Of a stretch of 41,722 nucleotides of DNA, positions 11,534 to 27,062 are shown piece after piece. The notes under the pieces are model-generated. The model saw only the letters and a list, made by a program, of their open reading frames with translations. It ran no database searches and was not told where the DNA came from. A program made the translations under genes and the position numbers. How positions within the stretch are numbered: the stretch's first letter is position 1; each line of letters begins with the position of its first letter. This stretch comes from Nautiliaceae bacterium (lineage in GTDB: Bacteria; Campylobacterota; Campylobacteria; Campylobacterales; Nautiliaceae), in the NCBI GenBank assembly GCA_039831155.1, contig JBDONT010000037.1, forward strand, positions 1 through 41,722. The letters run 5' to 3'.

Positions 11534-11542
11534 ATTATATCA
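11534..11542 (-). promoter_or_regulatory. Extended -10 promoter (TGATATAAT) of rnpB
   Basis: TGnTATAAT about 5 nt upstream of the P1 5' end. Confidence 0.75.
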
Positions 11543-11547
11543 TAAAA

Positions 11548-12549: not shown

Positions 12550-12624
12550 GAAAGCTCCTTTTTTTATTTAATTGTAACCAATAAAAAAAAATTATAAATA
12601 AATAATAAGAAAAGTAGCTTTTTT

Positions 12625-12731
12625 GTGTGTATAAAAGTAACACTTTTCTTTCTGAATGAATATATATTCACCAGTTTACAGGCTTTTTACGATATTATAT
12701 TATTGAAATAATGTGTTACTAAAAGTAATTA
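12625..12731. promoter_or_regulatory. Two imperfect copies of a 19-bp palindrome, consensus GTGTTACT-AAA-AGTAACAC (candidate operator)
   Basis: 12625-12643 GTGTGTAT-AAA-AGTAACAC; 12713-12731 GTGTTACT-AAA-AGTAATTA. Confidence 0.5.
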
Positions 12732-12842
12732 TCTTTAATAATCAAAAAACAAAGCATAAAAATTTTTAATAATGAAATTAAGCCCGGCTGAAAATGATAT
12801 GTGTAAAAATGAAAAAATTATTAAAAATAATTTAAGAAAATA

Positions 12843-12871
12843 TTTTTTTTTTTTTTAACTATTGTTATAAT
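12843..12871 (+). promoter_or_regulatory. Hydrogenase operon promoter: T14 tract followed by extended -10 TGTTATAAT
   Basis: T run 12843-12856; TGTTATAAT 12863-12871; SD AAGGAG before GTG at 12908. Confidence 0.75.
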
Positions 12872-12907
12872 AGTATTTGAAATAAATAGTCGGTTAAAGG
12901 AGAAAGA

Positions 12908-15900
12908 GTGGAAGGACTGATTTTTTTGTCTTTGTTTTTGGTTTTTGCTTCTAAACTGTATGCCTATTTTAATAAAGAAGATTTAAAAAAATCTTTTTTT
13001 ATCGCTAGTTTAGGAGAGGTTTTTTATTTGGGAATTTCCGTTTTGGGAAGCGAAGCTTTAGGTGTGGCCATCTTGCATATCGAGTATCAGATTGTTTTTA
13101 GAATTTTAGCGTTTTTAATGTTATTCGAATTTTTTAAGTTTAAGAATTCTACTAGTCTTAGTAGTTTAAAAGGTGTAGGATTTAATAAATGGGGGATTGT
13201 TTTCGGGTTTGCCGTTTTTGGTAGTTTGGGTATATCTTTAATTACTTCCAAACAGTTGATTTTAAATGTCTTTACTTCTAGCGGTATGTTTGAATTGGGT
13301 TATATGATAGTGCTGATTAATATTATTCAAGCTGTATATTTAATTACTGTTTTCGAAACTATCGTATTTGAAAAAGGGGAGGAATCTTTAAAAAAAGTTT
13401 CTAATATATTACCGATAGCGATATTTACGTTAGCCGGTATTTTTGTTTTTATTTTACCGAATATATATTTAATAATTCCTTCATCTATAGGGGGAGTTCA
13501 TTATAATTTTGATTTTAGTTTCGATTATTCGGGAGTAAGAGGTGTTTTTGCAACTTTATTCGCTTTCGTAATGTTTCTTGTTTATATTTATTCTTCGGAT
13601 TATATAAATAAATATAAATTTTTTTATTATTCTTTTCTAAGCGTTTTAACTATCTCCCTAATAGGGATAGCAGTAAGTGTTTCTTTTGAGAGTTTTTATC
13701 TTTTTTGGGAACTTATGACCATTTCTTCTTATTTGTTAATTTTATATTCTAGAAAAGAGAGTGCTATTAAAGCTGGTAAAATTTATTTTTTAATGTGTAT
13801 AGCCGGTGCTTATTTATTACAATTGGCGTTTTCTAAATTTTTTGTAAACGGAGTTTATGAATTCGGAGATATTAAAAGTGTTTCTTTAAGTGTGGCTGTT
13901 TTATTACTATTAGGATTCGGTGTAAAAGCCGGTATGGTTCCTTTACAAAAATGGCTTCCTTTAGCTCATCCGGAAGCTCCTAGCAGTATTTCGGCTCCTC
14001 TTTCCGGACTTTTAACTAAAGCGGGTATTTTGGGAATTATTTTCATAATTTATCTTTTCGGTTTTCAGTCGGATATTTTTTCTTATATGTTAATAATAAT
14101 TGGTCTTATTACTTTATTTTACGGAGAAATAAAAACTCTTTTTGAAAAAGATGTTAAAACTTTATTTGCCTATTCCACTATAGGTCAAATAGGAGAAATT
14201 TTAACGGTTTTAGGTTTAATGAGCCTTAGTGCTTTAACTTCGGTAATATACCATATTATAAATCATGCAATAGTAAAAGATTTGCTCTTTTTAAGTATAG
14301 GGATTTTAATTTTAAGTGCAGGAGGGAAAACTTTAGAAGATATTAAAGGAATAGGTAAAAAACTTCCTTTATTAGCTTTTCCTTTCGGAGTGGGTATTTT
14401 TGCGATTAGTGCTTTTCCTCCGTTCGGTAATTTTAACTCTAAATTTTTAATGGTTTATGCAGCAACGGAATCAAATAATTTTGTTGTGGCTTTCGGATTG
14501 ATTATAGGGGCTTTAATAGGTTTTATAGGGATGTTAAGGGTTTTTAAATATGTATTTTTATTCGCTCCTCAAAAAGAATTTAAAAAGGTTGGAGGAGTTA
14601 AAGTAATAGTTACTTATGTGCTTGCTTTCGTTTCATTATTATTAGGGATTTTTCCTAATGCGGTTATTTCATTTATTAATAAAGCCGTGTTCGTTTCTTT
14701 TGATAAGCTTGTAAGCGTTCCTAATTTTACTTTGCATATTCCTTTTGTAGTTTTAATAATGATTATAGGAGCTACGGTTGTATTCTTTTACGGTAAAGAC
14801 TCTTCTAAAAAAGCCGGTATGATAGCTGCTTCGTTTTCATTAATTGCTTTTGTTTCGACTTTAATTTATAAATTTTCATTAGGAAGTTTTTTTGCCGGTT
14901 TAGTTCTTTTTATGGCAGTATTGAATTTTGTATACGCAATGAAATATATGGATCATTCTCATAAACCTTATAGATTCTTTACTAACTTTATGATAATGAT
15001 TATAGGTATATTAGGTGTTGTTTTAAGTAAAGATTTTTATAATATGTTTTTTTATTGGGAAATTATGGGAGGATGGGCTTTATATTTGGCCCTTGTTCAT
15101 GAAGAGGATGAAAAATCCGTAAAAGAAGCTAGTAAATATTTGGTATATAATTTTGCCGGTGCCGGTATTATTATGATAGGCTTGGGAATAATCCTAAATT
15201 ACGGTATTAATTTTGATTTTCTAAAAAATATATCTTTTAACAATACTATTCTCCTTGCATTTATACTTTTAACTATAGGATTCTTAGCTAAAGCCGCTCA
15301 GATTCCGGTAAGAATAGATTATCAAATGCATCCTAAACCGGCACCTACACCTATTAGCGGGTATATATCTTCGGTAATGTTAAAAACAGGTCCTTTTATG
15401 TTGATAAAAATTTTCTATTCTTTAATCGCTACCGGGATTGCTATAAAAATTTTAACTATAGCACCTTTGGCTCATTTAGCGGCTGTTGTAGGAGTGATTA
15501 CTATTTTAATGGGAGCGGCTTTCGGACTCTTGACAAATTCTATGAAAAGGCTTTTAATATTTTTAACCGTAGCCGAAATAGGCTACATAATAGCCGGTAT
15601 TTCTTTACTTAATAGTGACGGATTGGCTGGAGGGTTTTTGCATTTAGTAAATCATATGTTTTTTAAAGACTTACTATTTTTAAGTGCGGGTGCTATTTTT
15701 TATAAAACCGGAGTTGATAATTTAAATGAAATAGGCGGGCTTGCAAGAAAAATGCCTATAACGTTTTTAGCGTTTTTAATTGCGGTATTCTCAACTGCGG
15801 GTGTACCTCTTTATAGCGGATTTGTTTCGAAATGGATGATTTATCACGCATTATTAGAAAAAGGTTACGTATTTTTAGCTGTTTCGGCTTTATTCGGTAG

Positions 15901-16396
15901 TATTATGATTTTACTTGTATTTGTTAAATTTTTACACTCCGCTTATTTCGGAAAAATAGATAAAAGATTTATCAATATTAAAAGAGTTGATTTATGTATG
16001 GCTATACCTATGGGAATTTTAGCTTTCTTAAATGTATTATTGGGAATTTTTCCTTCTATTATGTTAAAACCTATTAGTTTAGTTTTGGAAAGTTTTAATC
16101 TTTCTCCTGTTTCTTATACTTTGGCTTCCGTAAAAATGGGAGATGACGTATTAAATATGGGGGATTTAGCCGTTTATTTAATTGCGGCTATAATAATAGG
16201 ATTTTTACTTATTTATTATTTCGGTAAAAAAGAGAGAAAAACGCATATTTTTCTTTCCGGTGTTAGAGATTTGAGTGAAAGAGAAATCCATCTTCACTCT
16301 CAAAATTATTATGAACCTTTGATAAAATTAATTTTAGGAATTATTAGATTCGTAAAAAGAATCTTCGGATTAAAAGGAGGATATGTTGAACGCTGA
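12908..16396 (+). CDS. cooM: Energy-converting hydrogenase large membrane subunit (CooM-like, fused antiporter-like modules)
   Basis: Two NuoL/M/N-type modules (FWELM..WLP.AHPEAPS; YWEIM..HP.PAPTPIS) plus a partial N-terminal module. Confidence 0.85.
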   Translation: MEGLIFLSLFLVFASKLYAYFNKEDLKKSFFIASLGEVFYLGISVLGSEALGVAILHIEYQIVFRILAFLMLFEFFKFKNSTSLSSLKGVGFNKWGIVFGFAVFGSLGISLITSKQLILNVFTSSGMFELGYMIVLINIIQAVYLITVFETIVFEKGEESLKKVSNILPIAIFTLAGIFVFILPNIYLIIPSSIGGVHYNFDFSFDYSGVRGVFATLFAFVMFLVYIYSSDYINKYKFFYYSFLSVLTISLIGIAVSVSFESFYLFWELMTISSYLLILYSRKESAIKAGKIYFLMCIAGAYLLQLAFSKFFVNGVYEFGDIKSVSLSVAVLLLLGFGVKAGMVPLQKWLPLAHPEAPSSISAPLSGLLTKAGILGIIFIIYLFGFQSDIFSYMLIIIGLITLFYGEIKTLFEKDVKTLFAYSTIGQIGEILTVLGLMSLSALTSVIYHIINHAIVKDLLFLSIGILILSAGGKTLEDIKGIGKKLPLLAFPFGVGIFAISAFPPFGNFNSKFLMVYAATESNNFVVAFGLIIGALIGFIGMLRVFKYVFLFAPQKEFKKVGGVKVIVTYVLAFVSLLLGIFPNAVISFINKAVFVSFDKLVSVPNFTLHIPFVVLIMIIGATVVFFYGKDSSKKAGMIAASFSLIAFVSTLIYKFSLGSFFAGLVLFMAVLNFVYAMKYMDHSHKPYRFFTNFMIMIIGILGVVLSKDFYNMFFYWEIMGGWALYLALVHEEDEKSVKEASKYLVYNFAGAGIIMIGLGIILNYGINFDFLKNISFNNTILLAFILLTIGFLAKAAQIPVRIDYQMHPKPAPTPISGYISSVMLKTGPFMLIKIFYSLIATGIAIKILTIAPLAHLAAVVGVITILMGAAFGLLTNSMKRLLIFLTVAEIGYIIAGISLLNSDGLAGGFLHLVNHMFFKDLLFLSAGAIFYKTGVDNLNEIGGLARKMPITFLAFLIAVFSTAGVPLYSGFVSKWMIYHALLEKGYVFLAVSALFGSIMILLVFVKFLHSAYFGKIDKRFINIKRVDLCMAIPMGILAFLNVLLGIFPSIMLKPISLVLESFNLSPVSYTLASVKMGDDVLNMGDLAVYLIAAIIIGFLLIYYFGKKERKTHIFLSGVRDLSEREIHLHSQNYYEPLIKLILGIIRFVKRIFGLKGGYVER

Positions 16397-17345
16397 AATA
16401 ATTAACTTTTTGATTTTTCCCGGGGGAATATTCGCAATTCTTTTAGGGCTTATATTGATGAGTGTAGAAAGAATTTTAGTAGCTAGATTTCAAGGAAGAG
16501 TAGGACCTGTTTTTTATCAAAATATAATAGATATTATTAAACTTTTTAACAAAGAAACGCTTGTTCCTAAGGATGCTAAATACTTTATTTTTAAATTCGC
16601 ACCTCTTTTCGGATTTTCCGGAATGTTGGTTTTAGTATATTTTTTACCGATACCGGGAGTTTATGAAGGTGTAAAAGGAGATTATGATTTAATAATTTTA
16701 ATTTATTTTATGGCTTTACCGGCTATTTCTCATATTTTAGGAGGAGGGGCTTCTAGTTCGCCTTATGCTGCTATAAGTGTCAGTAGAGAACTTAAACTTA
16801 TGCTTGTATACGAGTTTGTTTTTATTATTATAGGTTTGACATTAGCTATTTATGTAGGACACGGTAGCGGGGAATTTTCTTTGAAAAAAATTATGGATTA
16901 TCAGTTGCAAAACGGTTATTTTTTATTTGATTGGAAATTATGGCCCGCTTTTTTGGCTTTTTTAATTTTTGTATTGGCAACTTTAGAAGTACCTCCTTTT
17001 GAAGTTGCACATCATAATTCGGCGGATATTATGGAAGGTTATTTAATCGAATATAGTGGTACTCCTTTAGCTATGTTCGAAATTACCGAAGCTTTAAAAA
17101 TAGTTGTTTTAAGTATTGTATTTCAAATTTTCTTTTTTCCTAGTGTAATGGGTGATGATATAGTGTTAAATTTATTATGGTTTATAATAAAAACATTATT
17201 TCTGATTATTTTTATAGCATTGGTTCACGCTTCTTTGGCTTCTTTTAGAGCCGATCAAGAATTTAAGTTTTTAATAAGAATACCTGTAGTATTGGCTTTG
17301 CTTTCGTTAATTTTAGTTATTTTATCTATAAAAGGATTAATATGA
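16383..17345 (+). CDS. cooK: Hydrogenase membrane subunit (NuoH-like)
   Basis: ER.L.AR.QGRVGP, D.IKL..KE, PPF and EYSG motifs. Confidence 0.85.
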   Translation: MLNAEIINFLIFPGGIFAILLGLILMSVERILVARFQGRVGPVFYQNIIDIIKLFNKETLVPKDAKYFIFKFAPLFGFSGMLVLVYFLPIPGVYEGVKGDYDLIILIYFMALPAISHILGGGASSSPYAAISVSRELKLMLVYEFVFIIIGLTLAIYVGHGSGEFSLKKIMDYQLQNGYFLFDWKLWPAFLAFLIFVLATLEVPPFEVAHHNSADIMEGYLIEYSGTPLAMFEITEALKIVVLSIVFQIFFFPSVMGDDIVLNLLWFIIKTLFLIIFIALVHASLASFRADQEFKFLIRIPVVLALLSLILVILSIKGLI

Positions 17346-17770
17346 GTATTATAACTAGAAGTCCCTTTTTATTTAGAATTAATACCGGTAGTTGTAACGG
17401 ATGTGACGTTGAATTGGCAACTACGGCCATGATACCTAGATACGATGTTGAAAGGTTGGGTTGTAGATATACCGGTTCTCCTAAACATGCGGACATTTTA
17501 TTGGTAACCGGTCCTATAACGGCTAGAAGTAAACCTTATTTAATTGAAGTTTTAGATGAGTTGCCTAAGCCTTTTGTAGTGGTAGCGATAGGTACTTGTC
17601 CTGCAAGTTGTGGTATTTTTAGAGATTCTTATTCTATAGAGGGACCGCTTGATAAATATGTTAAAGTCGATGTGAACGTTCCCGGATGCCCTCCTAGACC
17701 TCAATCGATTATAGACGGGGTGGCGAAAGCTATAGAAATTTGGAAAAGAAAAATAAGGGATGAAAAATGA
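17342..17770 (+). CDS. cooL: [NiFe] hydrogenase small subunit (NuoB-like)
   Basis: GSCNGCDVE, SPKHADILLVTGP, GTC and VPGCPPRP motifs. Confidence 0.9.
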   Translation: MSIITRSPFLFRINTGSCNGCDVELATTAMIPRYDVERLGCRYTGSPKHADILLVTGPITARSKPYLIEVLDELPKPFVVVAIGTCPASCGIFRDSYSIEGPLDKYVKVDVNVPGCPPRPQSIIDGVAKAIEIWKRKIRDEK

Positions 17771-18270
17771 GCGGATTTTTAAAAATTGCGATTAGAAACC
17801 TTTTAAAAGGTCCTACGACCGATCCTTATCCTTTCGGACCTACTTTCATACCGGATAAATTAAGAGGAAAATTAAAAGTTGATCCTAAAGCTTGTACTGC
17901 GTGCGGAACTTGTGAAGAAGTTTGCCCTTCCGCAGCTATTCATATTACTAAAAATAATAATTTATATGTTCATACAACTTGGTATAATACTTGTTGTTTT
18001 TGCGGAAACTGTGAGTTTTTTTGTCCGACTGGAGCTATAAAACTTAGCAATGATTTTCATACGGCTAATACGGAGGAGGAAAAATATAAATTCGTAAGTA
18101 TTGCCGTTATTCCGGAAATAAAATGTGAAAAATGTAATAAATTTTTCGTACCTCCTAGTGAGGAATTGTTAAAAAGAGCTTATCCTCATATAAATGAAAA
18201 TATAGAAAAATTTAAAAAAATATGTCCTGAATGTAGAAAAAAAGAAGCTTTTAAAAGGTTGCATAAATGA
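17767..18270 (+). CDS. cooX: Hydrogenase 2x[4Fe-4S] subunit (NuoI-like)
   Basis: CTACGTCEEVCP and CCFCGNCEFFCP plus C-terminal CEKC...CPEC. Confidence 0.85.
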   Translation: MSGFLKIAIRNLLKGPTTDPYPFGPTFIPDKLRGKLKVDPKACTACGTCEEVCPSAAIHITKNNNLYVHTTWYNTCCFCGNCEFFCPTGAIKLSNDFHTANTEEEKYKFVSIAVIPEIKCEKCNKFFVPPSEELLKRAYPHINENIEKFKKICPECRKKEAFKRLHK

Positions 18271-18788
18271 ATGAAATGAAAGAGACATTAACGAGAAAAG
18301 TTAAATCCGAAATAAAAGAGAGGTTGGAAGAATTCGATTTAAGGGAAGAGATTGATGAGAAAGGGAACGTTCAGTTGTGGTTAAAGCTGTATAATTTAAA
18401 AGATATTTTACATATAGCTCAATTAGTTAAAGATTTCGGAGGTAGATGTATAATTATAAGTGCCTATAAAAAAGATAATCATAGTGTATTGGTTTATCAT
18501 TTTGATATAGACGGTATGATTTTAAATGTAGAACTTGAACTTTTTGATAATAAAGTTTATTCGATTACGCCTATTTTAAATTCTGCAAATTGGGCTGAAA
18601 GAGAATTTAAAGAAATGTATGAAATAGAACTTATAGGACATCCTAATCCGGCAAGACTGTTTTTGGACGAAAGTATAGCCGAGGGTGTTTTAAGAGAGTA
18701 TATGCCGCTTTCTCAAGCGATGAATGGAGCGGCTACTTGTTGTATGTGGGAAAAGATTGAAAGTGAAAGGTTAGAAGATGAAAACTAA
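18267..18788 (+). CDS. cooU: Hydrogenase NuoC-like subunit
   Basis: SITP....ANWAERE..EMY....GHPNP.RLFL. Confidence 0.85.
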   Translation: MNEMKETLTRKVKSEIKERLEEFDLREEIDEKGNVQLWLKLYNLKDILHIAQLVKDFGGRCIIISAYKKDNHSVLVYHFDIDGMILNVELELFDNKVYSITPILNSANWAEREFKEMYEIELIGHPNPARLFLDESIAEGVLREYMPLSQAMNGAATCCMWEKIESERLEDEN

Positions 18789-19857
18789 AATTCCTATAGG
18801 ACCTTTTCATGTAGGGTTGGAAGAGCCTATTTATTTTAAGATTACTTTAAATGGAGAAACGGTAGATGAAGTTGATATGATAAACGGTTTTGTCCATAGA
18901 GGGATAGAGTATTTAGCAATGCAAAAAAACTTTTTTCAAAATCTTATATTAACGGAGAGAGTTTGTGCTCTTTGTTCGAATAATCATCCTTTTACTTATG
19001 TGATGGCGGTTGAAAAAATAGCCGGTATTAAAATAAGCAAAAGAGCCGAATATTTAAGAGTTATTGCCGATGAAGTAAAAAGAATAGCTTCTCATATGTT
19101 TAATCTTTCTATGCTTGCTCATTTAATAGGTTTTCATTCTTTAATGACTCAAACTATGGAGGCTAGAGAAATAGTGCAAGATATTAAAGAATCAATTTGG
19201 GGAAATAGAATGGATATGAGTGCTAATACTTTAAGCGGTGTAAAGTATGATTTAAACGAATCCCAAATAAAATATATATTAAAAAGTCTTGATAAAGTTG
19301 AAAAAGAGGCCGATGAACTTATTGATATCTATTTTAATAATAAACTTGTAAAAGCCAGAACCGTAAATGTAGGGGTGCTCCCAAAAGAAGATGCAATTCG
19401 TTTGGGTGTTGCCGGACCTACCGCAAGAGGTAGCGGGGTTAATAATGATGTACGTTTAAAAGCTCCTTATGCGGCTTATGACGAACTTAAACCTAAATTT
19501 ATTATAGAGGAGGGTGGTGATGTTTATTCCAGAATGAGAGTAAGGTGGAGAGAGGTGAAGGATTCTATAAGACTTTTGAGGGATGCTCTTAATAATTTGC
19601 CGGAAGGTCCTATTGTTACTCAAAAAAGACCTCATATTCCGGCGGGAGAAGCGGTAACCAGAAGTGAAGCCCCAAGAGGGGAACTTATCTATTATTTAAA
19701 AACAAACGGTTCTCAAAAACCTGAAAGAATGAGATGGAGAGTTCCGACTTATATGAATTGGGAAGCTTTAAGGGTTATGATTCCGGGGAATAAATTAAGT
19801 GATGTTGCGGTAATTTTTAATAGTATAGACCCATGTATTTCATGTACAGAAAGATAA
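18778..19857 (+). CDS. cooH: Group 4 (Coo-type) [NiFe] hydrogenase large subunit
   Basis: L1 motif ERVCALCSNNH; L2 motif DPCISCTER at the C-terminus with no cleavable extension. Confidence 0.93.
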   Translation: MKTKIPIGPFHVGLEEPIYFKITLNGETVDEVDMINGFVHRGIEYLAMQKNFFQNLILTERVCALCSNNHPFTYVMAVEKIAGIKISKRAEYLRVIADEVKRIASHMFNLSMLAHLIGFHSLMTQTMEAREIVQDIKESIWGNRMDMSANTLSGVKYDLNESQIKYILKSLDKVEKEADELIDIYFNNKLVKARTVNVGVLPKEDAIRLGVAGPTARGSGVNNDVRLKAPYAAYDELKPKFIIEEGGDVYSRMRVRWREVKDSIRLLRDALNNLPEGPIVTQKRPHIPAGEAVTRSEAPRGELIYYLKTNGSQKPERMRWRVPTYMNWEALRVMIPGNKLSDVAVIFNSIDPCISCTER

Positions 19858-19867
19858 AGGAGAGTAA

Positions 19868-20386
19868 ATGGCTAATAAATTTATATTCGCGGATGCTACT
19901 AAATGTATAGGATGTTTGAATTGTGAACTTGCTTGTGCTGCTAGTCATATGGGAGTTGATATAGAAGAAGCTTATGAAATGGGATTGCAAAATAAAGAGT
20001 TGATTCATAGAAATACGGTTATTCATCAAGCTAATTTAACGGCTCCTATGCAATGTATGCAGTGTGAAGACGCACCTTGTGTCAAAGCGTGTCCTATAGA
20101 TATTATTAAATATGAAAACAATTATGTAAAAATTTATGAAGAGGATTGTATAGGATGTAGAAGCTGTGCTATCGTATGTCCTTTCGGGGCTATCGTAATG
20201 GCTCCTAGTAGTTCCACTAACGTAACGGGACTTGTGGCTCTTAAATGTGATTTATGCGGAGGAGAAGAAGGAAAACAGGCATGTGTTAATATATGTCCGA
20301 CTGATGCTTTGGAACTAATAGATTACGAAGAGTACAAACTTAGAAAACAAAAACAGGCATTTGAGAGATTAAATCAACATGCATGA
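19868..20386 (+). CDS. CooF/HydN-like 4x[4Fe-4S] electron-transfer protein
   Basis: CIGCLNCELAC, CMQCEDAPCVKACP, CIGCRSCAIVCPFG and KCDLC...CVNICP. Confidence 0.88.
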   Translation: MANKFIFADATKCIGCLNCELACAASHMGVDIEEAYEMGLQNKELIHRNTVIHQANLTAPMQCMQCEDAPCVKACPIDIIKYENNYVKIYEEDCIGCRSCAIVCPFGAIVMAPSSSTNVTGLVALKCDLCGGEEGKQACVNICPTDALELIDYEEYKLRKQKQAFERLNQHA

Positions 20387-20714
20387 ATTATCTGTCGTGC
20401 AGTCGATGATAAAAGTGGTTGAAAAATTTGCTAAAAATAAAGAGGTAACGAAGATAGTTGTAAAAATAGGGAAAATGAGCGGGGTAGAACCCTATTTTTT
20501 AAAAGAGAGTTTTGATTTTTTTAAAGAAAATACGGTATGCAAAAATGCCGAAATAGAAATAGTTGAAGTAGATATTAAAATTAAATGTTTCGAATGCGGA
20601 GAAATAAGTTTGGTAAAAGGATTTGATTTTCATTGTCCTATTTGTGGAAGTGAAAAAACCAAAGTAGTTTCCGGGGAGGAAATGCATATAGAATATATAG
20701 AGGTAAAGGAGTGA
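20379..20714 (+). CDS. hypA: Hydrogenase nickel metallochaperone
   Basis: MHELS start; CFECG and CPICGS; SGEEM. Confidence 0.95.
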   Translation: MHELSVVQSMIKVVEKFAKNKEVTKIVVKIGKMSGVEPYFLKESFDFFKENTVCKNAEIEIVEVDIKIKCFECGEISLVKGFDFHCPICGSEKTKVVSGEEMHIEYIEVKE

Positions 20715-22138
20715 AAATGAAAAAACATTACAAAAGAATTCCGAAACAAATTCAAAGAAAAAGAGAAGCTCATGAAAGAAAAAGGGATTTTGAGCCTATT
20801 TATCATGAATTTACGAAAGAAGAAGCAACTGAACAAGCTCAAAGATGTATTACTTGTCCTATTGATATTTTAAGAGGATTAGAGAGTGAATTTAAATTTT
20901 GTAGAACGGGATGTCCTTTAAATAATTACATTCCTCAATGGATAAGAGAAGTTAGATTGGGAAATATTGAAAAAGCTTTCGAACTTAGTAACGAAACCTC
21001 TCCTTTTCCGGAAATTTTAGGAAGAGTATGTCCTCATGATAATTTATGTCAGGGAAGTTGTACTATAGCTAAGACCGAACACGGAAGTGTAAGTATAGGT
21101 GCTATAGAGGTATTTATAAGTGAGGAAGGATTTAAAAAAGGATTGAAACCTTATTACGGAGAAGATAAAAAAAGAAAAAAAAGAGTTGCGATAATAGGGA
21201 GCGGACCTGCCGGTATGAGTTGTGCGACGTTTTTGTTAAGAGGTGGGGCTAATGTGGAGATTTTTGAAAAATCTGACAGACCCGGAGGTCTTTTAACATA
21301 TGGTATTCCTAATTTTAAACTTCATAAAGACGTAGTTTTCAGAAGATTCAAATGGATGAAAGAAGCCGGGCTTAAACTTCATCTTAACCATCCTATTTTA
21401 ACCGAAGAAGAATTTGAAAAAATAGTAAACGAATTTGATGCGGTGTTTATAGGTGTGGGAGCTCCAAGCGGCAGAGGTGCCAGAATGGAAAATGAAGACG
21501 CAAACGGTGTTTATCACGTAATGGATGTTCTTACTCACGCTCAAAAAAGAGTATTCCAAGATTTTGACGATTGTATTTTAGAAGGTAAAAGAGTTATTGT
21601 TTTAGGTGGTGGGGATAGTGCTATGGATGCTGTCAGAACCGCTATAAGAAGCGGTGCTAAAGAGGTTACGTGCGTTTACAGAAGAGATGAGGCTAATATG
21701 CCGGGAAGTAAAAAAGAGGTAATTAACGCAAAAGAAGAGGGAGTTAAATTTATGTTTTACACCGCTCCTAAAGCTGTAAAAGTTGATGATAATAATAACG
21801 TAATAGGACTTGTATGTCAAAAAACCGAACTGGGAGAGCCTGATAGCAGCGGAAGAAGAAGGGTTCAGGTTGTAGAGGGAAGCGATTTTGAAATTCCTTG
21901 CGATATAGTTATTCTTGCATTAGGCTTTGATAACGTTAAATTTCCATGGTATGAACACGCGGGAATTGAAACCGATAAATGGGGTTGTCCGTTGGTTGAT
22001 AAAAGAAAAAGAACAAGCAATCCTAAAGTATATGCCGGAGGAGATGCGGTAAGAGGAGCCGATTTGGTTGTAACGGCTGCAAGAGACGGAAGAGATGCTG
22101 CATTTGCTATTTTAGAGGATTTAGGCTTAAAGGATTAA
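20711..22138 (+). CDS. GltD-like Fe-S/FAD NAD(P)H oxidoreductase (no gltB partner in the window)
   Basis: RC..C...C..GCP, GRVCP....[30 protein letters not shown] and [13 protein letters not shown] motifs. Confidence 0.88.
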
Positions 22139-22140
22139 AA

Positions 22141-23847
22141 ATGACACCTATTTATACGAGTGATGTGGTAATTGTAGGAGCGGGGCTTGCCGGACTTGCC
22201 GCAGCGAGAGAACTTGTTAAGGGAGGAAAAGATGTTATAGTATTGACTAAACTTCATCCTCTACGTTCTCATTCCGGTGCCGCTCAGGGAGGAATTAACG
22301 CCGCTTTGAGTGAAGATGACGATGTTGAGCTTCATATGTTCGATACGGTTAAAGGAAGTGATTATCTTGCTGACCAGGATGCGGTGGAACTTATGTGTAA
22401 GAAAGCTCCCGAGACAATCAGATGGATTGAGAGAATGGGAGCGGTATTCAGCAGACGCGAAGATGGAAGAATTGCTCAAAGACCTTTTGGAGGACAAAGT
22501 AAACCTAGAGCTTGTTTCGCAAAAGACAGAACCGGTCTTACTCTTCTTCAGACAATGTATGAGCAGTGTGTAAGAGAAGGTGTTAGGATTTTAGACGAGT
22601 GGTATGTTGCGGACGTATTGTATGAAGACGGTAAAGCATACGGGGTTGCCGCATATAATTTAAAGGATTTGACTCCGGCTGTTTTTAATGCAAAAGCGGT
22701 TATGTTTGCGACCGGAGGATATGCAAGAGCGTTTAAGATTAATTCGAACGCACACGCCAATACGGGGGACGGGCTTTCTATTTTAGCCAGACGCGGTATC
22801 CCTCTTGAGGATATGGAGTTCGTTCAGTTTCACCCGACAGGACTTGCCGGTAGCGGAGTTTTGATGAGTGAAGCCGCAAGGGGTGAAGGAGGAAGACTTT
22901 ATAACTCTTTGGGTGAAAGGTTTATGGAAAAATACGCTCCGGAAAAAATGGAACTAGCTCCCCGTGATGTTGTAAGCCGTGCTATTATGAAAGAGATAAT
23001 CGAGGGCAGGGGAGCTAAAGAAGACCCTTTTGCGGTATATCTTGATTTAACTCATTTAGGGGAGAAAAAAATAAATGAAAGACTTCCGGAGCTTAGAGAC
23101 CTTGCACTGACTTTCCTTGGACGCGATATGGTAAAAGAGCCTATTTTAATTGCGGCTACCGCTCATTATTCTATGGGAGGAATTCCGGTTGATATAAACG
23201 GACGTGTAAAAAAATCTCCTAATGAACTTACGGAAGGGCTTTATGCTGCAGGAGAATGTGCTTGTGTAAGTGTTCACGGGGCAAATAGACTCGGAGCTAA
23301 TTCTCTGCTTGAAGCTCTTTTTTACGGAAGATGGGTAGGAGAGAATATTTTAAATGACTTGGGTAAAATTTCTTTAAAAGAGGCTTCCGAAAGGGATGCT
23401 AAGAATATGTTGGAAGAAGTTGAATTTATTTTAAATGCAAACGGAAATGAGAAGGTTTCTAAAATAAGAGAAGAGCTTCAAGAAACTATGAGTACGAAAG
23501 TGGGTGTTTTTAGAGAAGAAAAAACTATGCTTGAAGCCAAAGAAAAGTTAAAAGAATTGAGAAAAAGATTTAAAAATATAAAACTTGATGATAAAAGTAA
23601 AATGTACAATACCGACCTTCAAGAAGCTATTGAACTCGGACATATGCTGGATTACGCTTTATTTATCGCAGAAGGAGCTATTAATAGAAAAGAATCTCGT
23701 GGAGCTCATTATAGGGAAGATTATCCGAAAAGGGACGATGAAAACTTTTTAAAACATACGTTCGGTTATCTTGAGGGCGATGATATTAAGGTGGAATATT
23801 CGAATGTTAAGATTACTAAATTTGAACCTCAAGAGCGTAAATATTAA
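22141..23847 (+). CDS. sdhA: Fumarate reductase/succinate dehydrogenase flavoprotein subunit
   Basis: [16 protein letters not shown] (FAD His), [26 protein letters not shown] and HGANRLG motifs; no Tat leader. Confidence 0.93.
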
Positions 23848-23857
23848 AGGATGAGAG

Positions 23858-24826
23858 ATGAAAGTGACGTTTAAAGTTTATAGATTCAATCCTGAAACGG
23901 ATAAATCTCCTCATTATGAAACTTATAATTTGGAAATGGGAGAAGATAAAGTAATTTTAGATGCTTTGAATTATATAAAATGGGAAATAGACGGGAGTTT
24001 AAGTTATAGAAGAAGTTGTAGGCATGGTATTTGCGGGAGTTGTGCTATAAAATTAAACGGTAAGAACGTTCTTGCTTGTAAAACTCCTATTAAAAAAGCG
24101 GTTGAAATGTTCGGAAATACTCTTGTGATAGAGCCTTTAAGTAAAAATAAAGATAAAGTTATAAAAGATTTGGTTAACGAGAAAAAAGATTTTTGGGACA
24201 AAAACGCAAAAATAAAACCTTATTTGATAGCTGAAATAGAAGAACATCCTAAAGAAGAAAATTTGATAAAACCTCCTCTTGTGGAGTTATTGGAAGAGGC
24301 GGATTACTGTATTGCGTGCGGATGTTGTTATTATACTTGTGAGAGTGTAAGAGCTAATAAAGAGTTTTTAGGACCTCAAGCACTTGCGAAAACTTACAGA
24401 TTTACGGCCGATGTAAGGGATGAGGCTAAAAAAGAGAGACTGGAAATCGTTAACGAGCTTGGTATAGGAATTTGGGACTGTGTGAAATGTCAAGCATGTA
24501 TAGAGGTATGTCCTAAAGGGGTTGATCCTTTTACTAAAATCACTCATCTTCACAATCAGGCTTTTGAGGAGGGTGTCGCTAAAAGGAACGTTGCTACAAA
24601 ACATGCCGAAGGTTTTGTACATTCTATTAAGAAACACGGAATTTTGGATGAAGGGATGCTTGTTTTATATTCCGAAGGTTTGGGTGTTGTAAGGCATTTG
24701 CCGGAGGCTTTTGAGATGTTTAAAAAAGGTAAAATCAAACTTCCGTGGGAGATGCCAAAAAGCGAAAAACTGGATGAAATCCAAAAACTTATAGAAATTT
24801 CTCAAACCCATGAGTTAAAGGACTGA
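23858..24826 (+). CDS. sdhB: Fumarate reductase/SDH iron-sulfur subunit, E-type with C-terminal extension
   Basis: SCRHGICGSC..C [2Fe-2S], CIACGCCYYTC and CVKCQACIEVCP. Confidence 0.9.
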   Translation: MKVTFKVYRFNPETDKSPHYETYNLEMGEDKVILDALNYIKWEIDGSLSYRRSCRHGICGSCAIKLNGKNVLACKTPIKKAVEMFGNTLVIEPLSKNKDKVIKDLVNEKKDFWDKNAKIKPYLIAEIEEHPKEENLIKPPLVELLEEADYCIACGCCYYTCESVRANKEFLGPQALAKTYRFTADVRDEAKKERLEIVNELGIGIWDCVKCQACIEVCPKGVDPFTKITHLHNQAFEEGVAKRNVATKHAEGFVHSIKKHGILDEGMLVLYSEGLGVVRHLPEAFEMFKKGKIKLPWEMPKSEKLDEIQKLIEISQTHELKD

Positions 24827-24827
24827 T

Positions 24828-25685
24828 ATGAAATATGCGTTATATACCGGATGTACGGCAAAAGAGTCAACTCCCGAACTTTTAAAATCTACTCTTGCGG
24901 TAGCTGAAGTTTTGGGAATTGAAATTGAAGTTCTTAATGAGGCCAGTTGTTGCGGGGCTAGTCATTTGCAGGATTTTGACGAATTTCTCGCTCTTACTCT
25001 AAATGCCAGAAATATTTGTTTAGCCGAAAAAAGAGGGCTTAAACTAGTGACTCTTTGTAATACGTGTCAGCTTATGCTTGAAGAGACTAAAAGAAAACTT
25101 GACAGTGATGAAAAACTAAAAGAAAAAGTAAATGAAAAATTAAGAGAAATCGGATATGAATATAAAGGCACTTCAAGAGTTCAGCACTTTTTGTATGCGA
25201 TTCTTGAGGATATAGGACTTGAAGAGATTTCAAAACACGTAAAAAAACCTTTAAACGCAAAAATAGCCCCTTTTTACGGGTGTCATATTATAAGACCTTC
25301 AAAGACCCATAACGGAGATAATTTAAACGAAAATCCTTACAAACCGAACGCTATTGAGAGTTTGATTAAAGTTATGATGGGAGAAGCGGTTGATTACGCT
25401 ATGAAAACCAAATGCTGCGGGTTTCATGTCGATTTGCAAAACACACCAGTGAGTGAAAAACTGACGGCTTCGGCTCTTGTTGACGCTAAAGAAAACGGGG
25501 CTGAAATGATGGTAACTCCTTGTCCTTTATGTCATTTGAATATTGACGTAAAACAAAGAAGTGCGTTAAAAAAAGTCAATAAGGATTTTAAACTGCCGGT
25601 ACTTCATCTCCCTCAGCTTTTAGGACTTGCTTTTGGAATAGAAAAAGAAAAACTCGGATTAAAACATCACGTTATTCCTCTTTAG
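24828..25685 (+). CDS. CCG-domain (HdrB/SdhE-like) subunit
   Basis: YTGC..CCG..CNTC and FYGC..CCG..CPLC, i.e. two CCG domains. Confidence 0.9.
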   Translation: MKYALYTGCTAKESTPELLKSTLAVAEVLGIEIEVLNEASCCGASHLQDFDEFLALTLNARNICLAEKRGLKLVTLCNTCQLMLEETKRKLDSDEKLKEKVNEKLREIGYEYKGTSRVQHFLYAILEDIGLEEISKHVKKPLNAKIAPFYGCHIIRPSKTHNGDNLNENPYKPNAIESLIKVMMGEAVDYAMKTKCCGFHVDLQNTPVSEKLTASALVDAKENGAEMMVTPCPLCHLNIDVKQRSALKKVNKDFKLPVLHLPQLLGLAFGIEKEKLGLKHHVIPL

Positions 25686-25989: not shown

Positions 25990-25997
25990 AACACTTC

Positions 25998-26996: not shown

Positions 26997-27034
26997 AGTG
27001 TATCCTTTTTTTTGTTATTGTAATATAAATTTAT

Positions 27035-27062
27035 AAACATATCAAGATATTTTGATATGTTT
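27035..27062. promoter_or_regulatory. 11-6-11 inverted repeat, probable ArsR operator
   Basis: AAACATATCAA-GATATT-TTGATATGTTT, just upstream of the minus-strand TACAAT (27017-27022). Confidence 0.8.

What the first reader, a model, noticed from the sequence alone, without database searches (positions are those of the whole stretch)
12908..25685. CODH-less Coo-type hydrogenase fused into one operon with an NAD(P)H module and a cytoplasmic fumarate reductase
Seen: 12 co-directional genes that overlap or are spaced by 10 nt or less, with no visible terminator: cooMKLXUH, cooF-like, hypA, gltD-like, sdhA, sdhB and a CCG subunit. No cooS, cooC or cooA lies in the window. Known: in carboxydotrophs CooMKLXUH takes electrons from CooS via CooF and translocates ions. 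Inference: here the CODH is replaced by a GltD-like flavoprotein plus fumarate reductase. This could form an ion-coupled H2 <-> NAD(P)H/fumarate hub serving the reductive TCA cycle, possibly as one supercomplex. Electron direction cannot be read from sequence.
Basis: partly seen in the sequence, partly recalled or inferred. Interest (0 to 1): 0.9.

Follow-up and report, generated by a model that had tools for sequence, protein, structure and literature searches.

The report
CODH-less Coo hydrogenase with NADPH module
A deep-sea-vent bacterium carries one tight operon joining a membrane hydrogenase, a flavoprotein module that most likely links it to NADPH, and a fumarate reductase; the arrangement is real and conserved, but it has largely been noted in print for close relatives.

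Summary
Twelve co-directional genes at 12908-25685 overlap or lie at most 10 nt apart: cooMKLXUH, cooF-like, hypA, gltD-like, frdA, frdB, frdE. No CooS, CooC or CooA was found in the genome (96.7% complete).

Across Campylobacterota the conserved unit is cooLXUH-cooF-hypA-gltD, and it occurs even without membrane subunits or frd genes. The linked GltD is a separate paralog clade. It carries a diagnostic 10-11-residue insertion in its first Fe-S motif (27 of 27 linked copies against 0 of 55 gltB-linked copies). CooF and GltD together cover the AegA fusion profile. So CooF-GltD is most likely the hydrogenase's NADPH module, standing where CODH stands in carboxydotrophs.

FrdABE is an anchor-less type-E enzyme. 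Its orthologs stand alone in other families. In Nautiliaceae it is gained and lost together with the hydrogenase (10 of 10 genomes). That shows co-regulation, not a supercomplex.

Papers on Nautilia from 2009 and 2022 already describe the CODH-less coo locus beside fdr, and the 2022 paper proposes that it generates NADPH. This scan also found the same arrangement earlier on other DNA. It is a new member of a described but biochemically untested kind.

The parts
12550..12907 (.). 358-bp intergenic region upstream of cooM, shared with a divergent flavoprotein gene. It is the likely promoter region of the operon.
   Evidence: It is the only gap longer than 10 nt in the cluster. Promoter-like sites lie at 12675-12703 and 12703-12732, but the scan as a whole is not above chance: 44 sites found against 55 expected.
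12908..16396 (+). cooM: 1162-aa membrane subunit with two antiporter-like (NuoL/M/N, MrpA/D) modules.
   Evidence: PF00361 with two stretches, E 8.9e-87. About 30 hydrophobic segments. 64-95% identical in 8 relatives.
16383..17345 (+). cooK: NuoH-like membrane subunit.
   Evidence: PF00146, E 8.4e-56. 8 hydrophobic segments.
17342..17770 (+). cooL: NuoB-like hydrogenase small subunit ([4Fe-4S]).
   Evidence: PF01058, E 8.3e-28. 88-96% identical in the family.
17767..18270 (+). cooX: NuoI-like 2x[4Fe-4S] subunit.
   Evidence: Fer4 families; NF009053, the formate hydrogenlyase Fe-S subunit, E 1.8e-28. Two CxxCxxCxxxC motifs.
18267..18788 (+). cooU: NuoC-like subunit.
   Evidence: PF00329, E 6.9e-17.
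18778..19857 (+). cooH: [NiFe] large subunit, NuoD-like, group 4 and Coo-type.
   Evidence: PF00346 and PF00374. CxxC pairs at 63/66 and 353/356 are invariant. 65% identical to the CooH of a CooS-bearing Carboxydothermus locus.
19868..20386 (+). cooF-like polyferredoxin (16 Cys, four [4Fe-4S] motifs). Proposed wire between CooX and GltD.
   Evidence: Best NCBIfam match is the N-terminal part of AegA (NF009408 positions 2-158, E 1e-38), then HydN. Best solved relatives are HycB3/HycB4 of HDCR and HycB of E. coli FHL. Cys motifs.
20379..20714 (+). hypA: nickel metallochaperone for [NiFe] maturation.
   Evidence: PF01155, E 9.2e-31. TIGR00100 scores 89.5 bits, above its cut-off of 88.1.
20711..22138 (+). 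Hydrogenase-linked GltD paralog: 2x[4Fe-4S], FAD and an NAD(P)H site. Proposed NADPH-coupling subunit.
   Evidence: TIGR01318 above cut-off; covers AegA profile positions 189-654. Aligns end to end with the NADPH-GOGAT small chain 6S6S_G, including GGGDxAMD and YRRDxxNMPGS. Separate clade. Clade-specific insertion: CxxC-14 aa-CxxxCP. It is the only GltD-like gene in the genome.
22141..23847 (+). frdA: fumarate reductase/succinate dehydrogenase flavoprotein. No signal peptide, so cytoplasmic.
   Evidence: TIGR01812 scores 794.8 bits, above its cut-off of 567.3. The FAD fold starts at residue 8. The match to the MFR SdhA profile begins at profile position 46, so the Tat leader is missing.
23858..24826 (+). 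frdB: Fe-S subunit with the C-terminal extension of the type-E/MFR kind. The third cluster motif has four Cys.
   Evidence: PF13085 plus Fer4 families; NF009227/NF009226-like. C208-x2-C211-x2-C214-x3-C218-P is invariant in 14 of 14 sequences.
24828..25685 (+). frdE: HdrB/SdhE-like subunit with two CCG domains and no transmembrane helix.
   Evidence: PF02754 twice; TIGR03288 and NF042965 matches, both below cut-off. CCG and CxxC motifs invariant. No hydrophobic segment.
11548..12549 (-). Divergent neighbour: 333-aa TrxR-fold flavoprotein (Pyr_redox_3). Possibly associated; role unknown.
   Evidence: Found next to the cluster in 6 distinct genomes at varying positions. The nearest solved relatives are weak: TrxR-type ferredoxin-NADP reductase at 46 bits and YpdA.

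Best explanation
The operon encodes two enzymes that are expressed together.

(1) A Coo-type, group-4 membrane-bound [NiFe]-hydrogenase (CooMKLXUH, matured with HypA). Its redox partner is not a CO dehydrogenase but a dedicated two-protein module. The module is a four-cluster polyferredoxin (CooF/HycB-like) plus a specialised paralog of the glutamate synthase small subunit (FAD, two [4Fe-4S], NADPH site). Together they are the split equivalent of an AegA-type fusion protein. The inferred electron path is NiFe site, CooL, CooX, CooF, the GltD Fe-S clusters, FAD, NADP(H). This gives a reversible H2:NADP+ oxidoreductase. In this H2-oxidising rTCA autotroph it most likely makes NADPH from H2. Because CooM and CooK are retained, the reaction is coupled to the ion gradient. 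Sequence does not show in which direction. One possibility is that the gradient helps NADP+ reduction when H2 is scarce.

(2) An anchor-less, cytoplasm-facing type-E fumarate reductase, FrdABE. It is an ortholog of the stand-alone FrdABE of other Campylobacterales. In Nautiliaceae it is co-transcribed and co-inherited with the hydrogenase as an accessory second Frd. It is probably a co-regulated consumer of reducing power in the reductive TCA cycle, not an obligate subunit.

Shown here: gene content, intact motifs, conservation, co-distribution, the paralog clade and its signature. Inferred: the electron path, NADPH as substrate, the direction, ion coupling, and any contact with Frd.
For: Gene content and spacing.

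No CODH in the genome.

Conservation in the family. The same 12-gene order occurs in 8 of 10 fetched relatives' loci. The other two keep cooLXUH-cooF-hypA-gltD.

Wider survey. Of 64 named loci found with a CooH alignment, 28 carry cooF-hypA-gltD directly after cooH, and 9 carry CooS instead. In the 24 non-Nautiliaceae gltD-linked loci no cooM or cooK was found. cooL and cooX are fused in the two loci annotated (L065, L076). 16 loci have at least 4 kb upstream of cooL, and none has a co-directional cooM or cooK there.

CooH tree. All gltD-linked enzymes form one clade of 36 rows with SH-aLRT 96. The CooS-linked enzymes lie outside it.

GltD tree. The 28 hydrogenase-linked GltDs plus 4 others form a clade (support 96). 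It is sister to 55 gltB-linked GltDs plus one of unknown context.

Signature. The spacing between CxxC and CxxxCP is 14-15 residues in 27 of 27 hydrogenase-linked GltDs and 4 residues in 55 of 55 gltB-linked ones.

Rosetta-stone evidence. CooF covers positions 2-158 and GltD positions 189-654 of the 659-position AegA profile.

NADPH motifs are shared with the NADPH-dependent GltD of PDB 6S6S.

Co-distribution in family f1. 10 of 10 genomes with this CooH also have the GltD (at least 73% identity) and FrdA (at least 84%) next to it. The other 15 have none of the three. 11 of the 13 genomes with no GltD at all still have GltB.

Frd autonomy. FrdA orthologs (64-79% identity) occur in 11 of 16 genomes of other families, and only 1 of those has the hydrogenase. 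frdABE stands alone in 4 of 4 loci examined.

Expression. RNA-derived contigs of two vent metatranscriptome runs (one sample, one study) hold 0.94 and 0.84 of the sampled words of 19000-25000. PMC10092268 (passages) reports the complex as over-expressed at high pressure and an NADPH-binding subunit as co-expressed with it, and proposes NADPH generation.
Against: No biochemical data exist for any member.

Thermodynamics are awkward. H2 to NADP+ is already downhill under standard conditions, so the reason for keeping ion-translocating subunits is unclear. Relatives do without them.

The GltD-like gene is the only one in this genome, while a 1461-aa GltB lacks a partner. It scores above the curated GltD-family cut-off. 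A role as GOGAT small subunit, alone or in addition, is therefore not excluded. PMC2628731 annotated the gene that way.

In Sulfurospirillum multivorans the transcript of the membrane-less homolog was negligible under all conditions tested (PMC5357620).

The 2-nt gap between gltD and frdA, and co-inheritance in 10 of 10 genomes, would also fit a physical GltD-Frd enzyme.

The RNA evidence comes from assembled contigs only. It may come from the sample that gave the window, cannot show one transcript, and cannot exclude DNA carry-over.

Related genomes are not independent observations.
Confidence: 0.6

Rival explanations
1. One supercomplex. CooMKLXUH, CooF, GltD and FrdABE assemble into a single membrane-bound machine. 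It passes electrons from H2 directly to fumarate and/or NADP+, possibly with flavin-based bifurcation at the GltD FAD, and couples this to ion translocation.
For: All 12 genes are translationally coupled, with 2 nt between gltD and frdA.

The three parts are gained and lost together in family f1: 10 of 10 genomes with the hydrogenase, against none of the three in the other 15.

Two further arrangements keep frdABE with the hydrogenase. L041 lacks membrane subunits but has frdABE directly after gltD. L076 has frdABE 2.8 kb upstream.

GltD relatives (NfnB) are known bifurcating flavoproteins: PDB 4YLF and 5JCA are the third and fourth best solved relatives.

An analogous Frd-plus-bifurcating-complex idea exists for Ca. 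Endoriftia (PMC13147460, passage).
Against: Of 13 non-Nautiliaceae gltD-linked loci with at least 4 kb on both sides, 12 have no frdA.

FrdABE orthologs stand alone in 4 of 4 genomes examined from other families.

The linked FrdB and FrdE show no added domain or sizeable insertion compared with stand-alone orthologs.

GltD is closer to the non-bifurcating GOGAT small chain (360 bits) than to NfnB (about 300 bits).

Operon membership alone does not show binding.
Confidence: 0.15
2. CooF, GltD and FrdABE form a five-subunit soluble NAD(P)H:fumarate reductase of the Hydrogenobacter thermophilus kind. The hydrogenase upstream is a separate, ferredoxin-coupled Ech/Coo-like enzyme that merely shares the promoter.
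For: H. thermophilus has a soluble five-subunit NADH-dependent Frd (ABCDE) whose A subunit is FrdA-like (PMC13147460, passages). That its other subunits are GltD- and Hdr-like is recalled only and was not checked.

Here five soluble redox proteins of fitting sizes lie together.

FrdABE has no membrane anchor.
Against: cooF-hypA-gltD stays attached to cooLXUH in 24 loci that lack frd.

hypA, a hydrogenase maturation gene, sits between cooF and gltD.

The closest FrdABE orthologs function without an adjacent GltD or CooF.

All 80 best relatives kept from a species-wide scan with the GltD alignment were Campylobacterota; none was from Aquificota.

The original paper (PMC2580677) was not held, so subunit homology could not be tested.
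Confidence: 0.12
3. The gltD-like gene is simply the NADPH-glutamate synthase small subunit, as annotated in 2009. It hitch-hikes in this operon, and the hydrogenase uses ferredoxin through CooF.
For: It is the only GltD-like gene in the genome. GltB (1461 aa, contig C43) has no adjacent partner.

TIGR01318 scores above its cut-off.

It aligns end to end with a GOGAT small chain.

PMC2628731 pairs it with GltB (passage).

In L133 a gltB lies 3.3 kb downstream of the linked gltD.
Against: 11 family genomes have GltB but no GltD, so GltB does not need GltD here.

Presence of GltD tracks the hydrogenase in 10 of 10 genomes.

Sulfurospirillum and Sulfurimonas genomes have both a gltB-adjacent GltD and the hydrogenase-linked one.

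The two form separate clades with a diagnostic insertion.
Confidence: 0.08
4. A decaying remnant of a former CO-oxidising Coo system with no present function. This was suggested as one possibility for Sulfurospirillum multivorans.
For: There is no CODH. echE transcripts were negligible in S. multivorans under all tested conditions (PMC5357620, passages).
Against: All 12 reading frames are intact and 64-99% conserved across four genera.

The Ni-Fe and Fe-S ligands are invariant.

The locus is present in vent metatranscriptome assemblies.

It was detected and regulated in a Nautilia proteome (PMC10092268).
Confidence: 0.03

Closest known systems
The coo and fdr locus of Nautilia profundicola (PMC2628731, 2009) and Hyd-3 of Nautilia sp. 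PV-1 (PMC10092268, 2022)
   Same: By the papers' text, a cooMKLXUHF operon lies beside fumarate reductase genes, and neither genome has a CooS. The 2022 paper names a co-expressed NADPH-binding subunit and proposes that the complex generates NADPH for the rTCA cycle. Same-genus genomes G001 and G004 share the 12-gene order at 69-93% protein identity.
   Different: This is a different genome. Its closest named record is an uncultured Nautiliales MAG contig at 95-99% protein identity (L043). The papers give no comparative or biochemical support. The 2009 paper assigns the gltD-like gene to glutamate synthase. Neither paper links Frd mechanistically. Supplementary tables and figures (Table S1, Fig. 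S2) could not be read.
CO-induced hydrogenase CooMKLXUH with CooF-CooS of Carboxydothermus and Rhodospirillum (group 4c)
   Same: Same six structural genes in the same order. CooH is 65% identical to that of C. islandicus, and cooF and hypA follow cooH.
   Different: There the partner is CooS (TIGR01702, 781 bits in L053), together with CooC and a CooA-like regulator. Here none of these exists in the genome, and a GltD paralog follows hypA.
The membrane-less 'Ech-like' or CooH-like hydrogenase of Sulfurospirillum (PMC5357620, PMC6242987)
   Same: Same clade of CooH, and the same cooF-hypA-gltD tail (L065, L079 and others).
   Different: It has no CooM or CooK, CooL and CooX are fused, and no frd is adjacent. 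In the passages read, the papers do not mention the GltD-like gene: 'glutamate' occurs 0 times in PMC5357620 and 'glutamate synthase' 0 times in PMC6242987. They consider loss of function possible.
E. coli AegA and YgfT (NF009408, NF009451): HydN-like polyferredoxin fused to a GltD-like flavoprotein
   Same: CooF plus GltD cover the whole profile apart from the linker (positions 2-158 and 189-654 of 659).
   Different: Here the two parts are separate genes with hypA between them, attached to a hydrogenase. Neither part reaches the curated cut-off (133 and 504 bits against 1003). AegA is linked to formate-dependent urate use, according to the NCBIfam name.
[FeFe]-hydrogenases of group A2, defined by a GltD-like gene downstream (HydDB, PMC5037454)
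   Same: A hydrogenase is paired with a glutamate-synthase-small-subunit-like NAD(P)H module (passage).
   Different: The catalytic family is unrelated ([FeFe], soluble). Here it is a group-4 [NiFe] enzyme with complex-I-like membrane subunits.
Type-E succinate:quinone / quinol:fumarate oxidoreductases, the MFR (SdhABE) of Campylobacter and Wolinella, and methanogen TfrAB
   Same: FrdA, an extended FrdB with a four-Cys third cluster motif, and a two-CCG-domain subunit instead of a cytochrome b anchor.
   Different: There is no Tat leader, so the enzyme faces the cytoplasm. The scores lie far below the MFR equivalog cut-offs: 508 against 1100, 152 against 600, and 225 against 500. The electron donor is unknown.
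Five-subunit soluble NADH:fumarate reductase of Hydrogenobacter thermophilus (Miura et al. 2008)
   Same: A soluble Frd working in the reductive TCA cycle with extra redox subunits (PMC13147460, passages).
   Different: Its genes are scattered in the genome (recalled). Homology of its C, D and E subunits to GltD, CooF or FrdE was not tested because the paper was not held. All 80 best relatives kept from the scan with the GltD alignment were Campylobacterota; none was from Aquificota.

Membership tests
Group 4 (energy-converting) [NiFe]-hydrogenase | The large subunit has N-terminal and C-terminal CxxC nickel-iron ligand motifs. | tested here: met
   RVC63xLC66SNNH and DPC353ISC356TER are invariant in 9 of 9 orthologs. 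PF00346 and PF00374 match.
Group 4 (energy-converting) [NiFe]-hydrogenase | Complex-I-like partner subunits (NuoB, C, I and H-like) plus antiporter-like membrane subunits. | tested here: met
   PF01058, PF00329, Fer4 families, PF00146 and PF00361 (twice). CooM has about 30 and CooK 8 hydrophobic segments.
Coo-type (group 4c) hydrogenase | Gene order cooMKLXUH and close similarity to the CooH of carboxydotrophs. | tested here: met
   Same order. CooH is 65% identical to that of C. islandicus. It groups with the Coo enzymes in the CooH tree, with the genome's own Ech enzyme as outgroup. HydDB itself could not be run.
Coo-type (group 4c) hydrogenase | A CooS carbon monoxide dehydrogenase as electron donor, with CooC and CooA. 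| tested here: not met
   Only a hybrid-cluster protein was found in the 96.7%-complete genome. No CooC or CooA-like ortholog was found.
Glutamate synthase small subunit family (TIGR01318) | A score above the curated cut-off, and the N-terminal Fe-S, FAD and NADPH motifs. | tested here: met
   514.9 bits against 482.95. Full-length alignment to 6S6S_G with [14 protein letters not shown] and [11 protein letters not shown].
Canonical GOGAT beta subunit (GltD working with GltB) | Encoded next to gltB, and belonging to the gltB-linked clade with 4-residue CxxC-CxxxCP spacing. | tested here: not met
   gltB lies on another contig. The protein sits in the hydrogenase-linked clade. Its spacing is 14 residues, against 4 in 55 of 55 gltB-linked proteins.
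AegA/YgfT-type ferredoxin-GltD fusion proteins | One polypeptide that reaches the equivalog cut-off. | tested here: not met
   It is split into two genes. The scores are 132.9 and 503.7 bits against a cut-off of 1003, although together the two cover profile positions 2-158 and 189-654.
Type-E (non-classical) fumarate reductase / succinate dehydrogenase | A CCG-domain (HdrB-like) subunit in place of a haem b anchor, and an FrdB whose third cluster motif has four Cys. | tested here: met
   PF02754 twice in FrdE. CxxCxxCxxxCP at 208-219 of FrdB is invariant in 14 of 14 sequences. No transmembrane segment in FrdA, FrdB or FrdE. That these two features define type E is recalled from Lemos et al. 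2002, which was not read.
8-methylmenaquinol:fumarate reductase (MFR, SdhABE) | A Tat-exported, periplasm-facing SdhA, and equivalog-level similarity. | tested here: not met
   The match to NF042982 starts at profile position 46, so there is no leader. All three subunits score far below cut-off.
Hydrogenobacter-type five-subunit NADH:fumarate reductase | Homology of all five subunits (FrdABCDE) to the purified enzyme. | not tested
   No sequences or text of Miura et al. 2008 were available. Only the secondary description in PMC13147460 was seen.

The most novel reading that the evidence does not exclude
In Nautiliaceae the twelve products form one membrane-bound machine. In it the specialised GltD flavin sits at a three-way junction between the hydrogenase (through CooF), NADP(H) and the anchor-less FrdABE. 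The very exergonic reduction of fumarate is then energetically coupled, by flavin-based bifurcation or confurcation or through the CooM/CooK ion pump, to NADPH formation or H2 turnover. This would be a new type of H2/NADPH:fumarate respiratory complex built on a group-4 hydrogenase.
Probability: 0.12. Interest if true: 0.85.

Novelty: new member of a known kind. Interest (0 to 1): 0.4.

Why it matters
Every biochemically characterised group-4 hydrogenase that I recall takes its electrons from ferredoxin, formate or CO. That statement is from memory and was not checked here.

A branch wired to NADP(H) through a dedicated CooF-GltD module would widen that picture. It exists both as an ion-coupled membrane enzyme (Nautiliaceae) and as a soluble enzyme (Sulfurospirillum, Sulfurimonas, Sulfurovum, Hydrogenimonas).

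It would also answer a question left open in the 2009 Nautilia genome paper: how these vent autotrophs make NADPH when no known route to it was found.

The comparative results here turn a one-sentence proposal from 2022 into a defined enzyme family that can be tested. They are one CooH clade, one GltD paralog clade with a diagnostic insertion, and gain and loss as a unit together with a second fumarate reductase.

The link to fumarate reductase remains an association and is not a demonstrated complex.

Tried and rejected
- **Laying metatranscriptome contigs over 11000-27500.** The aim was to see continuity across hypA-gltD-frdA. Co-transcription is therefore untested here.
- **Promoter and terminator scan.** It found fewer sites than the shuffles (44 against 55.3 promoter-like, 7 against 9.5 terminator-like). 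It says nothing for or against an internal promoter.
- **Miura et al. 2008 (PMC2580677).** The paper was not held. Other papers I searched for its subunit description gave only OGOR/POR references or nothing useful (PMC3578206, PMC2607301, PMC9560492). A search for 'NADH-dependent fumarate reductase / FrdABCDE' returned mostly trypanosome papers.
- **Searches for prior statements.** 'group 4c + hydrogenase + Campylobacterota' gave 0 papers. 'Ech-like + Sulfurospirillum + hydrogenase + NADPH' gave 0 papers. 'Nautiliaceae + hydrogenase + NADPH' gave 3 papers, of which only PMC10092268, already read, was opened; the other two were seen as listing and abstract start only.
- **The CooS-CooF-FNOR clusters of Geobacter (PMC4703632).** These are a functional precedent for CooF feeding an NAD(P) oxidoreductase. 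Their FNOR is an NADH-oxidase-type protein, not GltD-like, so I did not file this locus with them.
- **Rfam scan of the window.** It found only RNase P RNA and no leader or riboswitch upstream of cooM.
- **The TDT-family transporter and ArsR-type gene downstream of frdE.** I considered them possible parts of the system, but they are not conserved next to the cluster in relatives.
- **Our-findings look-ups by place and by words.** They returned nothing.

Full report
**What is there**

The window has 12 co-directional ORFs at 12908-25685. Successive genes overlap by 4-14 nt or are separated by 1-10 nt, and each is preceded by an AAGGA-type ribosome-binding site.

Pfam and NCBIfam identify them as follows:
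- CooM: 1162 aa, two antiporter-like modules.
- CooK: NuoH-like.
- CooL: NuoB-like.
- CooX: NuoI-like.
- CooU: NuoC-like.
- CooH: NuoD-like [NiFe] large subunit.
- A 172-aa, 16-Cys polyferredoxin of the CooF/HydN/HycB kind.
- HypA.
- A 475-aa GltD-like Fe-S flavoprotein (TIGR01318, above cut-off).
- FrdA, an extended FrdB, and a two-CCG-domain FrdE.

The nickel-iron ligands of CooH are intact and invariant in 9 of 9 orthologs. Only CooM and CooK are membrane proteins. FrdABE, GltD and CooF have no transmembrane helix.

FrdA has no leader. Its FAD fold starts at residue 8, and its match to the periplasmic MFR profile begins at profile position 46. The enzyme therefore faces the cytoplasm.

The operon is bounded upstream by a 358-bp gap to a divergent flavoprotein gene and downstream by a convergent gene that overlaps frdE. 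Consensus scans for promoters and terminators were at or below chance and decide nothing.

**No CODH**

The genome is 1.53 Mb in 43 contigs and 96.7% complete. It holds a single Prismane-family gene, a hybrid-cluster protein (TIGR01703), not CooS. A CooS verified in a Carboxydothermus locus (TIGR01702, 781 bits) finds only that gene, at 23% identity. The CooC and CooA-like proteins of the same locus find no ortholog.

The genome also has an Ech-type and a Hyc/Hyf-type group-4 hydrogenase, a Nuo complex, and a second frdABE-like set on contig C20.

**Conservation in relatives**

With CooH as query, 11 of 41 genomes (G000 included) have an ortholog at 62% identity or more.

Of the ten relatives' loci fetched, 8 have all 12 genes in the same order. 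Two lack cooM and cooK but keep cooLXUH-cooF-hypA-gltD:
- In L041 (same family) a tRNA synthetase gene lies upstream of cooL, and frdABE still follows gltD.
- In L042, which is the same locus as L076 (another family), frdABE lies 2.8 kb upstream, separated by unrelated genes.

A species-wide scan with a CooH alignment returned 64 named loci:
- 28 have cooF-hypA-gltD after cooH.
- 9 have CooS after cooF, two of them in Campylobacterales MAGs.
- The rest have neither within reach, or are cut by contig ends.

The 24 gltD-linked loci outside Nautiliaceae come from Sulfurospirillum, Sulfurimonas, Sulfurovum, Hydrogenimonas, Arcobacter and others. None shows cooM or cooK. In the two annotated in detail, cooL and cooX are fused. 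Thirteen of the 24 have at least 4 kb of sequence on both sides, and only one of these (L076) has frdA.

**Two trees and a signature**

In a maximum-likelihood tree of 70 CooH sequences, all gltD-linked enzymes form one clade of 36 rows with SH-aLRT 96. One of the 36 has a contig that ends before gltD. The sister group is a set of Desulfobulbaceae and Desulfocapsa enzymes with cooM and cooK but neither CooS nor GltD adjacent. The CooS-linked enzymes lie outside.

A scan with the GltD alignment kept its 80 best loci, all from Campylobacterota. Those at 53% identity or more are beside hydrogenase genes. Those at about 50% lie directly after gltB.

In a GltD tree the 28 hydrogenase-linked proteins plus 4 of other context form a clade (support 96). 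Its sister is a clade of 55 gltB-linked proteins plus one of unknown context (support 85).

The hydrogenase-linked clade carries a 10-11-residue insertion between the CxxC and the CxxxCP of the first Fe-S motif. The spacing is 14-15 residues in 27 of 27 linked proteins and 4 residues in 55 of 55 gltB-linked ones. The window's protein has 14.

Sulfurospirillum and Sulfurimonas genomes contain both paralogs.

**What the GltD-CooF pair is**

CooF matches positions 2-158 and GltD positions 189-654 of the 659-position AegA profile. The two genes are therefore the split form of a known ferredoxin-flavoprotein fusion, which is a classical indication that they work together.

The closest solved relatives of CooF are the HycB connector subunits of hydrogen-dependent CO2 reductase and of E. 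coli formate hydrogenlyase. GltD aligns end to end with the NADPH-dependent GOGAT small chain and shares its FAD and NADPH motifs.

**Co-distribution**

Family f1 has 24 relatives plus the window's genome.
- The 10 genomes with this CooH all have the GltD (at least 73% identity) and this FrdA (at least 84%) beside it.
- The other 15 have none of the three. Six of these are at least 91% complete.
- Two incomplete genomes among the 15 have a canonical gltB-gltD pair instead.
- GltB is present in 11 of the 13 genomes that lack any GltD. In this family GltB therefore does not depend on GltD, and GltD tracks the hydrogenase.

Presence and absence vary within two genera, so the cluster behaves as an accessory unit.

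Outside the family, FrdA orthologs at 64-79% identity occur in 11 of 16 genomes. Only one of the 11 has the hydrogenase. In 4 of 4 loci examined, frdABE stands alone. The linked FrdB and FrdE have no extra domain compared with those stand-alone orthologs.

All these genomes are kin and are not independent samples.

**Expression**

Contigs assembled from two vent metatranscriptome runs (one sample, one study) hold 0.94 and 0.84 of the sampled words of 19000-25000. This shows presence in RNA libraries. It does not show a single transcript, and the sample may be the window's own source.

**Literature**

I read passages only. Supplements were closed.
- **PMC2628731 (2009).** It lists cooMKLXUHF next to fdr in N. 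profundicola. It calls the role of CooLH enigmatic because no Epsilonproteobacterium then known had CooS. It pairs the gltD-like gene with GltB as NADPH-glutamate synthase. It states that the source of NAD(P)H is unclear.
- **PMC5357620 (2017) and PMC6242987 (2018).** They describe the membrane-less CooH-like hydrogenase of Sulfurospirillum as remarkable, of unknown role and barely transcribed. 'Glutamate' occurs 0 times in the first and 'glutamate synthase' 0 times in the second.
- **PMC13147460 (2026).** It treats extra Frd A and B subunits in Campylobacterota as 'incomplete' and does not mention hydrogenases: 0 occurrences.
- **HydDB (PMC5037454).** It defines [FeFe] group A2 by a downstream GltD-like gene, which is a functional parallel.

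My searches for an explicit GltD-linked group-4 hydrogenase in print found nothing beyond the 2022 proposal.

This scan had already reached the same conclusion on another genome (finding e1-2630524). I reached it independently before reading that note, and I tested it here.

**Mechanism**

Most likely (0.6), the hydrogenase, CooF and the specialised GltD form a reversible H2:NADP+ oxidoreductase. In Nautiliaceae it is ion-coupled through CooM and CooK. FrdABE is a co-expressed, separable fumarate reductase for the reductive TCA cycle.

The electron path, the substrate and the direction are inferred. The reason for ion coupling is open, because H2 to NADP+ is downhill at standard conditions. 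Coupling would make sense at low H2.

Rivals:
- A true supercomplex or bifurcating machine that includes Frd (0.15).
- A Hydrogenobacter-like five-subunit NAD(P)H:fumarate reductase made of CooF, GltD and FrdABE (0.12).
- GltD as plain GOGAT small subunit (0.08).
- A relic with no function (0.03).

No binding prediction could be run.

**Verdict**

The kind of locus is already described for the genus, and an NADPH hypothesis for it is in print.

- The family-wide definition of the unit.
- The GltD paralog clade and its signature insertion.
- The split-AegA relation.
- The gain and loss of the cluster as a unit together with a second Frd.

Noticed in passing
window 11199-11527 (-): Bacterial RNase P RNA class A (RF00010, 252 bits), complete, lying between a 322-aa ORF with no family match and the flavoprotein gene.
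   Followed up: no
window 11548-12549 (-); also L034 14672-15658, L041 1080-2066, L044 10680-11663, L045 17060-18049, L046 16993-17976: A 333-aa TrxR-fold flavoprotein (Pyr_redox_3) lies next to the cluster in 6 distinct genomes. Its position varies: divergent upstream of cooM here, convergent after frdE elsewhere. Its nearest solved relatives are weak: TrxR-type ferredoxin-NADP reductase (46 bits) and the YpdA bacillithiol-disulfide reductase. It could link NADPH to ferredoxin or to a thiol used by the HdrB-like FrdE.
   Followed up: partly
window 25672-26259 (-) and 25998-26996 (-): An ArsR/SmtB-type regulator ORF overlaps the end of frdE, and a TDT-family tellurite-resistance/dicarboxylate transporter (TIGR00816, above cut-off) lies convergent to the operon. 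Neither is conserved beside the cluster in relatives.
   Followed up: partly
own genome, contig C43 22029-26411 (-): GltB (1461 aa) has no adjacent small subunit. The operon's GltD is the only GltD-like gene in the genome. Eleven family genomes have GltB and no GltD at all, which suggests a ferredoxin-dependent or stand-alone glutamate synthase in this family.
   Followed up: partly
own genome, contig C20 (L121 4595-9632): A second frdA-frdB-frdE set (49-51%, 36% and 36% identity) is followed by an unassigned 160-aa ORF and a further short frdB-like gene. This paralog was found (48-53% identity at E <= 1e-100) in 20 of 24 family relatives and in G000, including 11 of the 15 that lack the hydrogenase cluster. 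It is probably the housekeeping enzyme.
   Followed up: partly
L063 (Sulfurimonas MAG) and L070 (Campylobacterales MAG): These two loci carry a canonical cooMKLXUH-cooF-cooS arrangement, with CooS 67-72% identical to the Carboxydothermus protein. Some Campylobacterota therefore do have the CO-linked form, unlike what was known in 2009.
   Followed up: no
L139 (Sulfurospirillum arcachonense) 7899-16852; also L130, L140, L142: Four GltDs of the hydrogenase-linked clade, all with the 14-residue spacing, do not sit after cooH. In L139 the GltD lies 1 kb upstream of an fdhF-hycB-hyf-type formate hydrogenlyase cluster, with a Crp-type regulator between them. The fdhF frame is split into 139 + 589 aa, possibly at a selenocysteine codon, which I did not check.
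   Followed up: partly
L048-L052, L061, L100 (Desulfobulbaceae and Desulfocapsa MAGs): This is the sister clade of the GltD-linked enzymes. It has a shorter cooM, then cooKLXUH-cooF-hypA, but neither CooS nor GltD nearby. In L100 the next gene is recD2 on the other strand. Its electron partner is unknown.
   Followed up: no
L133 (Sulfurovum MAG) 4599-17063: A gltB gene lies 3.3 kb downstream of the hydrogenase-linked gltD, with unrelated ORFs on both strands between them. This is a loose link that might hint at electron delivery to glutamate synthase.
   Followed up: no
L041 (G007): In the CooH tree this family member groups, on a long branch, with the membrane-less Campylobacterales enzymes (support 94). 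In the GltD tree its GltD groups with the Nautiliaceae proteins (support 99). This suggests either a mosaic origin of that cluster or a long-branch artefact.
   Followed up: no
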